Source: an uncultured Methanosarcinales archaeon
GTDB lineage: Archaea > Nanobdellota > Nanobdellia > Woesearchaeales > GW2011-AR9
Assembly: GCA_964343575.1 (NCBI GenBank)
Contig: CAYFJV010000002.1
Coordinates: 1-64,000, forward strand
Direction: 5' to 3'
DNA: 64,000 nt
Part shown: positions 27,001 to 33,000 of the stretch, one piece after another
Layout of the letters: each line of letters starts with the position of its first letter
Position numbering within the stretch: position 1 is the stretch's first letter
Made by a program: the position numbers

Positions 27001-30000
27001 ATGAGATTATTGGTATTCTAGGAGAGAATGGAACTGGAAAAAGTTCTTTTGTACGCTTTTTAGCTGGAGAATTTGATGCTAATTCTGGTTTAGTAAGTGA
27101 AAAAGTAGAAGTCTCTTACAAACCCCAATATTTAGATTTTAGCGAGGACGAGCGACTTGTTGTTGAGTTCTTGTCCGATGCTGTTGCTAATCATGAGCTG
27201 CAATTAATTAAACCACTTGACTTAGAAAAGTTGTACACGAAAAAGTTGAATCAATTATCTGGAGGAGAGCTGCAACGTGTAGTAGTTGCACATTGTTTAA
27301 GCAAAGATGCCGAGTTGTTCTTGTTAGACGAGCCTTCTGCTTATCTTGATATCGAACAAAGAATGCTTGTTGCAAAGGTCATTAAGCGAGTTTCGCGCGA
27401 GCGAGAAGTAACAGTGCTTGTTGTTGATCATGATATGATGTTTTTAGATTACCTTGCTGACCGCTTACTTGTCTTTGGGGGAGAGCCGGCCATCTCTGGA
27501 ACTGTTGTTGGTCCGCTCTCTAAAGAAGAAGGAATGAACGAGTTTTTGAAAAGTTTAGATATTACTTTGCGTCGTGATCCTCACTCTGGGCGTCCTCGAA
27601 TTAACAAGCCGGGAAGCGTTAAAGATCGTGAGCAGAAGGCGAGTGGGAAACGGTATTATTCTTAGGACCATAAACTCCTTTGGTGTTGCGAAAACGTGTG
27701 AGATAACCATTATCTTGTTCTAGAATTTTTCTTGTTAATTCTGTTTCAGGCACTCTTTGGAAACGAGAAGGATGAAGCTGTTCTTTACCTTCACCGATTA
27801 GATACCTTGAAACTAAGCTCAAGTGACCCCAGTTCAAAACTGATCTTTGTGGATCATTCCCAGGGAAAAATCCTTGATCCTGCACAACTTGATACAACAC
27901 ATCTGTGTTTCTTCCAGAGTATAAAGCAAGGACTTCAGGAGCTTCCTCTAAAGGGAGGAAAGGTCGTCTTGCTAATCTCACCAAATCTACCAATCTTGAA
28001 TTTGTTGCTCGCAATACCTCAAAATAAGGTGCATCATCATCAATATCTAAAGGACTTAAAACGTAGAAATAAGCTGGTTCAAAAACCCTCATCCAAAGTG
28101 GGTCCGGCTCATCACTTCTAAGCTGTTCAGCAATATACTGGCGCATACGCTCTTCAATTGCGGCAGGAGAATTATCCATTCCTTGCACTTGGGCTGCCCG
28201 AGCATTCATCTCCCTAGAAAATTGGCTTTTTCTTAAAAACTTTTGTTTAAATTTCAAAAAATAATTTCTTTTTTGTTTTGTTTAAGAAAAAGATCCTTGC
28301 TTTTGGTTAAAATTAACAGACTAAATAAGGAGTATGAAAAAAAGGTTGTAAAAAAAGAAAAAGAGAGTTTATCTCACAAAGATTACTCCTTGCAAGACAT
28401 GAGTCATTTCAGGATCTTCAACTTCATCATCCATATCACGATCTTCGCGGTGAAACTGACTTACATAGTAGTAGTCACCAGCTTCAGTAAAAGTGTGAGA
28501 GATGATTGCACCGTCAGGTAACTCTGCAACGAATTCGCCGCCAGTAAAGTCAATGCTATAATGCACATCGTCTTTGTTGACCCACTCAACGGTGTCGCCA
28601 ACATTGATGGTTAAATCAGTTGGCATAAAGTTGTATCCTTCAATAACTACGGTGTTTATACTTCCAGTGTTAGCCGAAGCATCACCTGCGACAATTACAG
28701 TAGTTTCGTGCTCTTGTTCAACAGTCACTTCTTCTGCTGGCATTCCAGCAAGCAAGAAAGCAACAACGACTAAAGCAAGGGCTAAAACCACAGTCGCGCC
28801 AATAAGTGCTTTTGTTTTCATGAGTATAACCTCTATTCTTTGAGATTTTAGTACCCAAAAGGAGTAACATTATAAATCTTTCCTAGAAAAAGGCTAGCCA
28901 GCGGCGAAAAACTCCAAAAAAAAGAGTAAATTAAGAAAAAAAAGGCCAAAATGGGCCTAAAGGTTGATCTTATCTGCAAATTGCCCGATAAGAGGTAGTG
29001 GTTTTTCTTTGCCAGAAAGCGCATAAACCCATCCAAGCACCCAGAAGACCAAAGAGATGATCCATCCTACAATTGGAATAAAGGATACAATCACACTAAA
29101 GATGAAAAGTACCAGACTTTGCTTTGCATAATACATTGCATAACTGTTATCTCTTTTAGCAAGAAGGACAATAAGAAATCCTAAGATACCAAAAAACATA
29201 GCAATAAATGCCCAAATTTTTCCTTCACTCACAACATTTGCACTAGAAGTTTTACTACTTGATTTTTTCTTTGCCATAAAATACACCCCAATGAGCCAAG
29301 AGCGTTATGCTGCGCGCAGTGCTCCTTGGCTTGGTTAATGAGAGAAAGGATGGAAAAGATTCGTTATAAAGCTTTTCCTTATATTTTGAGAAATTTGGGC
29401 GAGGATGCTTTGAAAGAAAAGAAAAAAACTACATTTTGTTCCAATCACGCCAATACAAAATTGCGGTGATGATATGCAAAATCATGGCTACGAGGGGAAC
29501 CCAGCCAAGCGCAGCAGCAACAATTCCCATAACAGGTGCTGTTTTTTTAGCATCCTGTTTGTTGCCAAAAAGAAGTACAGCAATATGAAAAGCAAGATAG
29601 ATTGGTAGAATGGTCCAAACAGTTGCAAGCACAACAATTGCTCCTAAAAGGGGAATTGCAAGTACGGTCTCTCCAATTGCTCCGATTAATTTAAGATTCT
29701 TGAGAAACTCGTAATCAGGATCGCTCTTTTTTTGCCTGCTTACTCTTTTTTGCGTTTTGCTTTTTTTTGCTTTTATCTTTTTTGCCATGTTTAGTTTGTT
29801 TTCTTTAATCTTAATAATGCTTTCCAATCTTCTTGGTGATTCTTCCAAAAGAAGTAGAGGGCTACTGCCATCATTGTAATACTAAACCATTGTCCTGGTG
29901 TGAGCGTAACTGTTCTCACTGGATCAATTCTCCAAATGTCTAAGATAAGCCTTCCAAGCCCATCCCAAAACATAAAGTTCCAAAAGATGAAGCCGGGTTT

Positions 30001-33000
30001 GAACTGTTTTCTTAAGCTAGAGAAACTTAAGAAATAAAGCCAGCCAAAGACTGCAAAACGTTTTGCTGCAGCATAAAGTGGTGTTGGATGACGACAACCA
30101 TCTGGAAGGTTTGTAATGTATTGATTTTGTGAAAAGTCCACACACCAGGAAACATTTGTGATTGGCCCATAGAGTTCTGCGTTAATAAAATTAGCTACTC
30201 TTCCTACAGCAAGACCAAAAATTGCAGGTACTGCGAGCAAGTCTGCAAGCTCGAGGAAATTGAGTTCTTTCTTTTTGACATAGATTGCTCCTGCGATGAT
30301 AACTCCAACAAGCCCCCCATGAAAACTCATCCCACCGTTCCAAACCCTAAAAAATTCTAAAGGATCTTTAAGATAAAGTGTAGGTTCCCAAAAGACCAAG
30401 AAGAGTCTTGCACCAATGAGCGCGCCAAGCATTAAATAAAAGCCAAAGTCCCAAACCTCATCTGAAGTTAGTTTAAGCTCTCCTTTTTTTCTCCAGTACT
30501 GTAGCCACCAGATACAGAAGAAGAAACCGAATAAGTATGCTAAACCATACCAGCGTAGTTCGAGTGGGCCAAGAGTTAGGAGAATTGGGTTGATATTATG
30601 GACGAACATGTCTGTTGCTTGAGTGTACTTGGTTATTAATCTTTTCTTTGAGTACAAAGCCTTTTATAGAAAGTAAGAGATAGCTTAGGTATGGCACGCT
30701 TTTGGAATCATGTCAAACGCGTCTTTCGAGATGCAGAGATCATTATTGAAGTGCTTGATGCACGCTCTATCGAGAAAAGCAGAAATATTGAGATAGAAGA
30801 AAAGGTAGCAAAAGCTGGAAAAAAATTGTTGTTTGTGATCAACAAAGCAGATCTTGTTCCAAAAGGAAAGCTTGATCCTTGGAAACGAAAGCTAAAGCCA
30901 TGTGTGTTTATCTCCAGCACTGAAAAACAGGGAACCACCATTCTGAAAAAGAAAATATTGGAGCTTAGTCGTGGAGAGAAAGTTATTGTTGGTGTGGTTG
31001 GTTATCCTAATGTTGGGAAATCAAGTTTGATCAATGCTCTTTCTGGTAGGGGAGCGGCGCGTACTTCTTCTTGGTCCGGTTTTACTAAGGGTGTTCAGAA
31101 GATTAAGGTTGATAACAAAATTATGATTTTAGATACCCCCGGGGTCTTTCCCTACAAAGAGAAGGACGAGTTTAAGCATGGGATGACAGGGGCAGTAGAT
31201 TATTCTCAATTAAAAGATCCCGAAACAGTTGCTGAAAAATTTATTGCTGAGCACAAGGAGATGGTGCTTGAGTTTTATGAGCTGGATAAGAGTCTGAATG
31301 ATCCTGAGGAGATTTTAGAAGCACTTGCTTTTCACATGAAGTTCTTATTGAAAGGGGGAAGAGCAGATACAGAGAGAACTGCTCGATCTTTGCTTAAAGA
31401 TTGGCAATCGGGGAAATTGCGCGATTGGAGATTTGCTAAGGAATAAATACATTCTTCCTATTTTTTCTTTTTGTAAGGCTCTTTGAAAAAGTCAGTAAGG
31501 CGCTTGGCAGTTGTTTTCCCAACACCTTTTGCTTCTTGCAATCCTTTTTCGTCTGCATTCACAAGCTTCTTGATAGAGCCAAAGTGCTTAAGAAGTTTTT
31601 TTGCTGTTCCCATGCCAATGTTTGGAAGCGAAGCTACAGCATACTCTTGTTGCTCTTTAAGAGATTGAGGTTTGCTTTGATGTGGATTGAAGACTTTTCC
31701 TCCTGCTTTTCCTTGCTCACGTTTAGCCATCACCGCAAGCAATTCTGCAGTATCTCTTGCATCCTTTGTATAAAGCACAGGAACTGCATAGCCAAGCACG
31801 ATACTCGCTAAAGCTCCTCGAATTGCGTTAGGGTGAATGTTGCGTTGCGCGTAAATATCTTCCTCTCCTTCAATAATAAGCAATGCTTGCGGAAAGCTTT
31901 CTTTGAGCGTTCTTACTTGTTGGAGCAATCTTCGATCAAGAATGGAGTTAACAAAATCTGGAACTTTCTTGAGCTCAACTCCAACTTGGCCAGAAACCAC
32001 ATAGTCTGCTGTGTTGAGTTGCGTAGATTTTGCTGGAATGCCCATGCTGAGAAGTTCTTTGAGTACTTTGTTGTTGTTCTCTCGGTGGTCTGCTAAGATT
32101 GCGATGTTTTGTTGGCCTGTTTGTTGTTCTGTAATTTCTTTTTTGAGAAGAGAAGCGGGTGGAGGAGGAGGAGTTTCTTTTACTAAGAATTTGTTGAGAG
32201 TAGTCTTTTGCTTGACTTTCTTTGCTGTAGAGAAATCTTGTAATGACTTTTCGTTGATAAGATACTTAAGATCTGATCTAAGCTTATCAAGCACCTTGTA
32301 CATGTTTTTTTCTTTATGAAATGCCGCCCAACGGTATGCCTCATCTCGCGTTCCTTTAACATACATCACTTTAACTGATCCTTGCTCTAATCTCCCTGTT
32401 CTTCCTCTTCTTTGAATGTTTCGAATAGCGCTTGCTGTGGGCTCATAGAAAATTACTTGATTTACTTTGGGAATATCGAGGCCCTCTTCAGCAACAGAGG
32501 TTGCGACGAGTACTTGAAACTCTCCTGCACGGAACTTGTCAAGCACTTCTTTTTGTTGTTTTTGAGAGAGGCCTAAACCTCCTTTTTTTGCTTGGCCTAC
32601 AAAAATTTGGTGTTTGATGGCAAGTGCTTGGAGTTGGTTTGCGATCTCTTGAGCAGAGTCACGAAAGTTTGTAAAGACAATTATTTTTGTTTGAGGAACT
32701 GTTGCAATCTCTTGCATTACTAGTTTGCTTAGTTTTTCTACTTTAGGATGTTGGATCTGCCTTTCTATGAGGCTTTGTGTAAGGTGATGGGCGGCTTTGA
32801 AGTTAGGATCAATTGCAAGATTCTTTACTGCCTTTGTTTTGCTGGTTCTTGCTTGCTCGAAAAGTTTGTTGAGGTAGACATTAAGCGCCGTAAGGCTCTG
32901 ACACTCAAGAAGTTCTAGTGCATGCTCTACTTTAAGCACCTCGGCTAGGAGCGAGAGTGCTTTGAGCACATCATAATTTACTTGAGACCTTCCAATTCTA

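What a model noticed while it worked through the whole genome (the two positions that open the first line are those of the whole stretch)
29791..30609. Bacterial-type lipoprotein pathway (two Lgt, LspA, Lit) in an archaeon
This archaeon encodes two full-length prolipoprotein diacylglyceryl transferases (g00758; g00842 at C2:107374-108123), a lipoprotein signal peptidase II (g00892, C2:158906-159439) and a Lit-like lipoprotein transacylase (g00209, C1:196706-197311), together with at least 25 proteins that start with a textbook bacterial lipobox signal peptide. I read this as a working Lgt-LspA(-Lit) lipoprotein maturation route in Woesearchaeales, distinct from the AliA/AliB route of haloarchaea. 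New would be that true Lgt and LspA homologues do exist in Archaea, against statements in the 2018 and 2025 literature, which raises the question of which lipid an Lgt transfers in an archaeal membrane.
Evidence so far: g00758: NCBIfam TIGR00544 (equivalog) 189.5 bits against a cut-off of 118.9, 94% of the model; Pfam LGT 1-239 of 240, E 2e-65; 37% identity over residues 5-251 to Geobacter Lgt (4e-50). g00842: TIGR00544 174.6 bits; Pfam LGT 1-238 of 240; 37% identity to Tolumonas Lgt (2e-42). g00892: TIGR00077 signal peptidase II (equivalog) 87.3 against 73.95; Pfam Peptidase_A8 2-142 of 142; 42% identity to Moorella LspA. g00209: Pfam Lit 53-176 of 176, E 3e-22 (all call 154 from the tables). 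Simple lipobox screen ([LVIFMA][ASTVIGLF][GAS]C within residues 9-40, hydrophobic h-region, N-terminal K/R): 25 of 1308 proteins, e.g. ...FLLTAC, ...LLAACS, ...LLFACS. relatives.tsv: LGT in 705 of 822 other Woesearcha [...]
(Added by a program. Inside this text positions count along the whole contig: contig position 1 is position 1 of the stretch shown here. "Call 12" and the like, gene names such as g00115 and contig names such as C1 are that model's own, and its searches are not shown. The text may have been shortened before it was handed on; [...] marks where a part breaks off. The agent that wrote the report below was given it as the finding of a first reader that could run no searches.)

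Follow-up and report, generated by a model that had tools for sequence, protein, structure and literature searches.

The report
Bacterial lipoprotein pathway in Woesearchaeales archaea
This tiny uncultured archaeon and most of its lineage carry the three enzymes that bacteria use to lipid-anchor surface proteins and lack the archaeal enzyme for that job, although recent papers say archaea have none, which likely means their anchors are borrowed bacterial-type fatty-acid lipids.

Summary
Confirmed. Window 29791-30609(-) is an intact Lgt (TIGR00544 189.5 vs cut-off 118.9; model matches E. coli Lgt 5AZB, Z 21.4) among archaeal genes. The genome also has a second Lgt, LspA, a Lit-like protein with all six conserved Lit residues, and a lipobox excess (19 vs 0.24 shuffled). 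Among 151 genomes of the order: Lgt 141, LspA 139, Lit 117, AliA 0. Among 251 of the phylum, the 5 AliA holders have none of the three. In other orders lit, lgt and lipobox genes are clustered. Lit moves an ester acyl chain, and neither lipid backbone pathway was found, so the anchor is likely scavenged bacterial diacylglycerol (inferred). Against: CarS is kept (75 of 151). Both copies here deviate at Tyr235, a family-wide change (Glu in 19 of 19 relatives). Nothing is assayed. Papers of 2018, 2025 and 2026 call Lgt absent from archaea, but a 2021 supplementary table already lists Lgt, LspA and Lit in 71-83% of Woesearchaeota without comment. This scan found the same pathway before on at least eight other windows of other genomes. 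Interest 0.66.

The parts
29791..30609 (-). Lgt copy 1 (272 aa), Lgt-family variant: keeps Y26, H103, D129, G142, R143, N146, E151, G154, R239, R246 (E. coli numbering); changed G145A, E202A, Y235D, E243D. Stands alone, head-to-head with a YlqF-like GTPase gene. It is the only part inside the window. The other parts lie outside it, in contig coordinates: Lgt copy 2 at C2:107374-108123(-) (249 aa, 31% identical to copy 1; G142V, Y235F, R246K); LspA at C2:158906-159439(-) (D114, D128); Lit-like gene at C1:196706-197311(-) (H70, V74, F136, H140, F144, W149 = B. cereus Lit H85, V89, F149, H153, F157, W162); 19-34 lipobox genes on C1 and C2, none in the window

Best explanation
The gene encodes an intact Lgt-family enzyme that, with the genome's LspA and Lit-like proteins, likely forms a working bacterial-type lipoprotein route that has replaced archaeal AliA in this lineage and likely anchors some 20-30 surface proteins with ester-linked diacylglycerol taken from bacterial phospholipid. 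Shown: the genes, their folds, most catalytic residues, the lipobox excess, the lineage-wide presence, and no AliA, GGGP synthase, PlsY or PlsC found in this genome. Inferred steps: (1) Sec exports pre-prolipoproteins; (2) Lgt (H103 base, R143/R239 pocket) moves a diradylglyceryl group from a PG-like lipid to the lipobox Cys; (3) LspA cuts before the Cys; (4) Lit shifts the sn-2 acyl chain to the Cys amine (lyso form), which needs an ester and cannot work on ether archaeol; (5) since the cell cannot build either lipid backbone, the donor is scavenged, most simply from bacterial hosts or prey. The family-wide Y235E/D, E202A, E243D change is read as a retuned donor pocket, not decay (inferred). 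Odds by step: route active in the lineage about 0.9; this copy active about 0.75; anchor ester-linked about 0.65.
For: Lgt over the equivalog cut-off. AF2 model pLDDT 94; only Foldseek hit with E<1e-3 is E. coli Lgt (TM 0.72); Z 21.4, 248 aligned, rmsd 3.5, next Z 6.0. The six residues re-confirmed as essential in E. coli (Y26, H103, R143, N146, G154, R239; bioRxiv 2025.03.27.645668) are kept in both copies. Lit-like model matches B. cereus Lit, Z 19.4, rmsd 2.4 over 197 residues, next unrelated Z 8.0; both His in 20 of 20 aligned; Lit transfers the sn-2 ester chain (PMC8275575). Order: Lgt 141, LspA 139, Lit 117, AliA 0 of 151, with working controls. Phylum: Lgt 224, Lit 189, AliA 5 of 251; the 5 have no Lgt, LspA or Lit. 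In other orders of the class all 30 Lit holders are among the 44 Lgt holders. In 9 stretches picked for close hits, lit and lgt adjoin or overlap in G263, G270 and G272 and flank a lipobox gene in G317; G272 has lspA, a lipobox gene, lit and lgt within 2.9 kb. No full-length GGGP synthase in 151; PlsY over cut-off in 4 of 151; no PlsC, PlsY, ketoacyl synthase or Lnt in this genome. A His-box fatty-acid desaturase is in this genome (68.3 vs 29.7 bits). SignalP6 counts in PMC12462473: 12-60 lipoproteins in the 6 Woesearchaeota rows seen, AliA/B 0 in 7 of 7. The variant pocket is in the only Lgt found in 17 of the 19 family genomes sampled; pN 0.26-0.33 vs pS 0.67-0.91.
Against: No activity, expression or lipid data. 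Y235F/L/S do not complement E. coli, and E243 mutants failed in one assay (PMC4728403) though E243A was viable in another; copy 1 has Y235D, copy 2 has Y235F. This genome keeps CarS next to a CDP-alcohol transferase, and CarS is in 75 of 151 genomes; purified A. fulgidus CarS prefers the archaeal substrate over phosphatidic acid (review PMC9385802). The Lit-like protein is below both NCBIfam cut-offs. Lit-like proteins occur in 19% of Aenigmarchaeota, where Lgt is in 5% and AliA in 89%, so the family can exist without Lgt. Lit was not found in 34 of 151 genomes, and the desaturase is over cut-off in only 6 of 101. The lipobox is the same for AliA substrates, so it says nothing about the lipid. 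Active-site changes are common in the archaeal clade (H103 replaced in 11 of 40 spread order copies). Related genomes are not independent samples.
Confidence: 0.58

Rival explanations
1. The route works, but Lgt has been retuned to transfer archaeol (ether lipid) from scavenged archaeal lipids, or takes either kind; Lit then acts on a minority of substrates or does something else.
For: CarS plus CDP-alcohol transferase kept here and CarS in 75 of 151; CarS selective for the archaeal substrate; the changed residues E202, Y235, E243 line the donor pocket; the C3-S bond that Lgt makes does not itself need esters (inference); all cultured DPANN have archaeal hosts (abstract listed).
Against: Six of six conserved Lit residues and the fold are kept; lit clusters with lgt; Y26 and R143, which bond the ester oxygens in E. 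coli Lgt, are kept; AliA, the known archaeol route, is gone wherever Lgt is present; CarS-like proteins also occur in about 10% of CPR and Gammaproteobacteria genomes; CarS is missing from half the order.
Confidence: 0.24
2. The lineage has the route, but the window's copy is inactive or has drifted to another job, and copy 2 or another enzyme does the work in this genome.
For: Y235D, E202A, E243D, G145A in copy 1; Y235 substitutions kill or weaken E. coli Lgt; a second copy exists.
Against: The same pocket (Y235E, E243D in 19 of 19) is the only Lgt found in 17 of 19 family genomes, among them G094 (100% complete), which also has LspA and Lit; B. thetaiotaomicron Lgt naturally has G142I, Y235I, R246K.
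Confidence: 0.11
3. These archaea make bacterial-type ester lipid themselves by enzymes not recognised here, so Lgt needs no scavenged lipid.
For: PlsY in 4 of 151, once two genes from lgt; papers report some fatty-acid and G3P dehydrogenase genes in some Woesearchaeota.
Against: PlsY not found in 146 of 151; no ketoacyl synthase in 5 of 5 and PlsC in 1 of 5 genomes tested, four of them single-contig. GpsA, PlsX and acyl-CoA synthetase were not tested.
Confidence: 0.06
4. Artefact: bacterial DNA mis-binned or mis-assembled into an archaeal genome.
For: The gene family is bacterial; the assembly has no 16S rRNA.
Against: The gene sits on a 485-kb contig among RLI, Hef and a Trm14-like gene; genome contamination 0.6%; four single-contig genomes hold Lgt and LspA; named best hits are archaeal; the archaeal copies group apart from 81 named bacterial ones.
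Confidence: 0.01

Closest known systems
E. coli Lgt (PDB 5AZB/5AZC; PF01790; TIGR00544)
   Same: Fold over residues 1-262, HGG motif, signature region, R143/R239 pocket; 30% identity.
   Different: In an archaeon with no lipid synthesis found; donor-pocket changes E202A, Y235D, E243D and G145A; shorter head domain.
Bacterial LspA / signal peptidase II (S. aureus 6RYO, P. aeruginosa 5DIR)
   Same: Over the TIGR00077 cut-off; conserved NxG, GNxxDR, VxDF, FNxAD blocks.
   Different: Archaeal host; not next to lgt in this genome.
Bacillus cereus Lit (PDB 7B0O/7B0P) and the monoderm Lgt-Lsp-Lit lyso-form route
   Same: Fold Z 19.4, His dyad and four further conserved residues; Lnt not found, as in monoderm bacteria.
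   Different: 23% identity; below NCBIfam Lit cut-offs; activity untested.
AliA/AliB of Haloferax volcanii (DUF63; PMC12462473)
   Same: Same kind of substrate (lipobox proteins) and same job.
   Different: Different family; adds archaeol; not found in any of 151 order genomes, and never together with Lgt in 251 phylum genomes.
Module 15 of Castelle et al. 2021 (PMC8204110, Table S3)
   Same: Lists LGT (0.83), SPase II (0.83) and DUF1461/Lit (0.71) in 196 Woesearchaeota, DUF63 0.0.
   Different: Table rows only; the main text has no occurrence of lipoprotein, Lgt, signal peptidase or diacylglyceryl.

Membership tests
Lgt family (PF01790 / TIGR00544) | Score above curated cut-off over the whole model | tested here: met
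   189.5 vs 118.9; Pfam 1-239/240
Lgt family (PF01790 / TIGR00544) | Lgt fold | tested here: met
   TM 0.72; Z 21.4, rmsd 3.5, 248 aligned to 5AZB
Lgt family (PF01790 / TIGR00544) | Essential Y26, H103, R143, N146, G154, R239 | tested here: met
   all six in both copies (list)
Lgt family (PF01790 / TIGR00544) | Diacylglyceryl transfer from PG to lipobox Cys | not testable with these tools
   needs assay
Canonical E. coli-type Lgt (13-residue motif of Legood et al.) | All 13 motif residues, including G145, Y235, E243 | tested here: not met
   copy 1 has 10 of 13 (G145A, Y235D, E243D), copy 2 has 10 of 13 (G142V, Y235F, R246K); not filed as canonical. Y235 is kept in 30 of 30 top-scoring and 33 of 40 spread order copies
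LspA (TIGR00077 / Peptidase_A8) | Score above cut-off | tested here: met
   87.3 vs 73.95
LspA (TIGR00077 / Peptidase_A8) | Two invariant aspartates | tested here: met
   D114 and D128 in 31 of 31, aligned to 6RYO; that these two are the dyad is recalled, the review read says only two strictly conserved aspartates
LspA (TIGR00077 / Peptidase_A8) | Cleavage of lipidated prolipoprotein | not testable with these tools
   needs assay
Lit-like (PF07314) | Pfam score, fold, His85/His153 and V89, F149, F157, W162 | tested here: met
   75.8 vs 24; Z 19.4; six of six residues
Lit equivalog (NF051877 / TIGR01906) | Score above NCBIfam cut-off | tested here: not met
   55.7 vs 400 and 71.7 vs 74.8; filed as Lit-like only
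Lit-like (PF07314) | sn-2 to amine acyl transfer | not testable with these tools
   needs assay
Archaeal AliA/AliB route | DUF63 gene present | tested here: not met
   0 of 151, control rang in three euryarchaeotes
Diderm Lgt-Lsp-Lnt route | Lnt present | tested here: not met
   TIGR00546 0 of 5 genomes

The most novel reading that the evidence does not exclude
Woesearchaeales and sister orders are archaea on the bacterial side of the lipid divide: they lost ether-lipid synthesis and AliA, took up Lgt-LspA-Lit once, early, and build their membranes and lipoprotein anchors largely from ester phospholipids drawn from bacterial hosts. The AliA-versus-Lgt switch would then be a genomic marker of host domain in DPANN, and this family's Tyr235-to-acid pocket would be a new Lgt chemistry tuned to the host's lipid.
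Probability: 0.35. Interest if true: 0.9.

Novelty: new variant of a known kind. Interest (0 to 1): 0.66.

Why it matters
Specialist papers up to May 2026 state that Lgt and Lsp are absent from archaea, and the AliA paper notes lipoprotein-rich archaea with no known enzyme. This fills that gap for the Woesearchaeota rows of its own tables. It also gives a bench test that needs no culture for an open question: what lipids, and so what hosts, Woesearchaeales have. If their Lgt and Lit need ester lipids, a large archaeal lineage runs on bacterial-type lipid anchors, which bears on the lipid divide. Interest is held down because the enzymes are known, the gene counts were already tabulated in 2021, and nothing has been assayed.

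Tried and rejected
Contamination: rejected (see rivals). 16S rRNA: none in the assembly. Donor lineage: unresolved. Plasmid hits were too narrow and were not used; only 1 of 10 cluster look-ups gave an organism name; the 80 named bacterial Lgts came from 1/64 of the collection, were picked by canonical patterns and include no Bacillota, Chloroflexota, Bacteroidota or Patescibacteria. No AU test and no bootstrap tree was run. dN/dS was not computed because synonymous sites are saturated. PcrB matches in 23 of 151 genomes were rejected as GGGP synthase because all are short C-terminal pieces (best 29.5 bits). The UbiA-family gene C2:261301-262176 looks to me like a decaprenyl-phosphoribose-synthase type and not DGGGP synthase (recalled motif, not tested). 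The Fe-ADH_2 hit in this genome is a 51-position piece below cut-off. The Lit homologue search returned only 3 relatives. No complex prediction was run. Literature searches that found no paper describing Lgt or LspA in these archaea: 0 papers; 4; no listed paper holds 'lipoprotein signal peptidase'; 0. Subscription journals and bioRxiv supplements (e.g. the 208-genome Nanobdellota preprint) were not visible and may hold it.
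Full report
Observation. The stated frame, window 29791-30609 on the minus strand, is open and encodes 272 aa. It scores 189.5 bits on the equivalog TIGR00544 (cut-off 118.9) and covers Pfam LGT 1-239 of 240. It lies on a 485-kb contig of a 1.21-Mb assembly (95.1% complete, 0.6% contaminated). Its neighbours include RLI and Hef over their cut-offs and a Trm14-like gene below its cut-off. The three other genes lie outside the window and are as stated: a second Lgt (C2:107374-108123, 174.6), LspA (C2:158906-159439, 87.3 vs 73.95) and a Lit-like protein (C1:196706-197311, Pfam 75.8 vs 24). 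The Lit-like protein is below both NCBIfam cut-offs. The order name rests on this; no 16S rRNA is assembled.

Structure and residues. An AF2 model from 96 sequences (pLDDT 94) matches E. coli Lgt over its whole length (TM 0.72; Z 21.4, rmsd 3.5, 248 aligned, next Z 6.0). Both copies keep Y26, H103, D129, R143, N146, E151, G154 and R239. Copy 1 has G145A, E202A, Y235D, E243D; copy 2 has G142V, Y235F, R246K. In E. coli, E202, Y235 and R239 contact the glycerol C3 hydroxyl, Y26 and R143 bond ester oxygens, Y235F/L/S do not complement and E202A is partly active (PMC4728403, passages). E243A failed there but was viable in a later study (bioRxiv 2025.03.27.645668, passages). B. thetaiotaomicron Lgt naturally has G142I, Y235I, R246K and does not work in E. 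coli (section 10; PMC13251419, passages). The change in copy 1 is family-wide: 19 of 19 family orthologues fetched (of 27 positive family genomes) have E235 and D243, as do nearly all of 119 close homologues (E 110, D 8 at 235; D243 119). In 17 of those 19 genomes it is the only Lgt match. pN to the window gene is 0.26-0.33 and pS 0.67-0.91. The 30 best-scoring order copies are near-canonical (Y235 30 of 30), but they were picked by score. A spread of 40 has Y235 in 33 and H103 replaced in 11. LspA keeps D114 and D128 in 31 of 31 (30 best-scoring loci plus this one). The Lit-like protein keeps all six residues named as conserved in B. cereus Lit (PMC8275575, passages). Both His are in 20 of 20 aligned (19 of 20 fetched loci were recovered), and its model matches 7B0P with Z 19.4, rmsd 2.4.

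Substrates. On 1274 genes from a simple hexamer caller, a lipobox rule gave 34 candidates with alternative starts and 19 with best starts, against 0.24 (max 2) in 100 shuffles. Cys stood at 19 of 225 N-terminal motif sites and 3 of 798 internal ones. SignalP was not available. In the supplement of PMC12462473 the six Woesearchaeota rows I saw have 12-60 SignalP6 lipoproteins, 29-51% of secreted proteins (file 5 part 5). All seven named Woesearchaeota rows have 0 and 0 in the table I read as AliA and AliB (both columns are headed COG01967), while N. equitans, Nanobsidianus, three Nanohaloarchaea and seven Aenigmarchaeota have AliA (file 7 part 3).

Distribution. In 151 genomes of the order (own included): Lgt 141, LspA 139, Lit 117, AliA 0; among the 116 high-quality ones 109, 109, 95, 0. 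Four single-contig genomes have Lgt and LspA, three of them Lit. In 251 genomes of the phylum, a sample that overlaps the first and is mostly the same order: Lgt 224, Lit 189, AliA 5. The 5 AliA genomes are among the 27 without Lgt and have no LspA or Lit. In other orders of the class 44 genomes have Lgt and all 30 Lit holders are among them. Within the order 8 of the 9 listed Lgt-negative genomes have Lit, which I read as assembly gaps; three of them were also tested for LspA and have it. Of 9 stretches fetched because hits lay close, lit and lgt adjoin or overlap in G263, G270, G272 and flank a lipobox thioredoxin-like gene in G317. G272 has lspA, a lipobox cupredoxin-like gene, lit and lgt within 2.9 kb. 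Kin are not independent, so I give no p-value. The tallies include five genomes marked unpublished (G112, G121, G132, G325, G326), and two G132 loci were in the residue counts and FastTree trees; no conclusion depends on them.

Origin. With 80 named bacterial Lgts and E. coli, all 112 archaeal copies fall on one side of a branch (FastTree 0.956; 31 archaeal vs 28 bacterial rows under LG+C20, SH-aLRT 99, no bootstrap). Four named bacterial proteins, chosen as near hits of copy 2, nest beside copy 2. That may be back-transfer, a second gain or long-branch attraction. One early gain is not ruled out, but the bacterial sample is narrow and the donor is unknown.

Which lipid. No full-length GGGP synthase was found in 151 genomes, in line with PMC8421398 (passages). 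PlsY is over cut-off in 4 of 151. This genome shows no PlsC, PlsY, ketoacyl synthase or Lnt. So the lipid is probably imported. Lit moves the sn-2 ester chain to the Cys amine, which an ether lipid cannot give (chemical inference). Its retention and clustering with lgt favour an ester anchor. A His-box fatty-acid desaturase at C1:510483-512024 agrees, but it is rare in the order (6 of 101 over cut-off; lead from an earlier scan note). Against this: CarS beside a CDP-alcohol transferase is kept here and CarS in 75 of 151, and purified CarS prefers the archaeal substrate (review PMC9385802, passages). Lit-like proteins also occur in 19% of Aenigmarchaeota, which mostly have AliA and no Lgt. A bacterial host for some Woesearchaeota was proposed earlier from murein transglycosylases (PMC8204110, passages); my data add a correlation, not a host.

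Prior knowledge. PMC6098224 (2018; passages), PMC12462473 (2025; abstract, passages, section 7, supplement searches and two supplement parts) and PMC13251419 (2026; passages; based on RefSeq of February 2021) state that Lgt, and the first two also Lsp, are not found in archaea. PMC12462473 adds that some lipoprotein-rich archaea lack AliA/B. PMC13631571 (2026; passages) has no occurrence of DPANN. Yet Table S3 of PMC8204110 lists LGT 0.83, SPase II 0.83, DUF1461 0.71 and DUF63 0.0 for 196 Woesearchaeota (Pacearchaeota 0.08, 0.04, 0, 0), the first three in its Woesearchaeota module 15 (supplement rows), with no mention in the main text. PMC8421398 lists lgt in Supp. Data 4. Term searches in PMC10936187, PMC13473441, PMC9723730 and the Nanobdellota preprint 10.64898/2026.05.13.725050 found no 'lipoprotein' (passages only). 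PMC8689077 was read as passages for mechanism. Library searches gave no paper that draws the pathway together; closed journals and preprint supplements were not visible. Earlier notes of this scan report the same pathway on eight other windows of other genomes; I read them after forming my view, and they are not independent support.

Verdict. Real, lineage-wide, and contrary to current specialist statements; a known bacterial pathway in an unexpected host, already tabulated but not interpreted in the papers I could see. What this window adds is the family-wide Tyr235-to-acid pocket and the lit-lgt-lipobox gene clusters in sister orders. Activity and lipid type are inferred. Interest 0.66.

Noticed in passing
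G000 C1:372389-373473 (L067): CarS-like gene convergent with a CDP-alcohol phosphatidyltransferase in a genome with no GGGP synthase found: a lipid head-group recycling pair of unknown substrate; G097 also has the two genes close together (L065).
   Followed up: partly
G000 C1:510483-512024: Membrane fatty-acid desaturase with His boxes fused to a hydrophobic C-terminal domain; already noted by the scan (e1-9807290).
   Followed up: partly
L267 (G272:C44), L264 (G317:C2), L265 (G263:C16), L266 (G270:C30): lit-lgt operon-like clusters with lipobox genes (cupredoxin-like, thioredoxin-like); lspA divergent in G272.
   Followed up: yes
L268 (G076:C19): lgt lies two genes from a PlsY gene, one of only 4 clear PlsY matches in 151 genomes.
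   Followed up: partly
L168, L171, L172, L161, L162, L164, L166, L169: Order copies of Lgt with H103 replaced by Y or F, and three with N146 replaced by C, like divergent bacterial variants described in the Legood study.
   Followed up: no
PMC12462473 supplements; G152, G161, G194: Pacearchaeota rows show 1-11 predicted lipoproteins with almost no AliA and, per PMC8204110, little Lgt; 22 of 251 phylum genomes had neither gene: a possible third route, false predictions or assembly gaps.
   Followed up: no
G157, G287, G101: Genomes with 4, 6 and 5 Lgt matches.
   Followed up: no
window 12494-12626: tRNA match of 133 nt on the minus strand, longer than usual, probably intron-bearing.
   Followed up: no
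G000 C2:106769-107356: ORF convergent with Lgt copy 2 starting with a short lipobox-like N-terminus that my screen did not score.
   Followed up: no
window 28369-28821: N-terminally anchored cupredoxin-like protein (weak amicyanin and plastocyanin hits) without a lipobox Cys.
   Followed up: no
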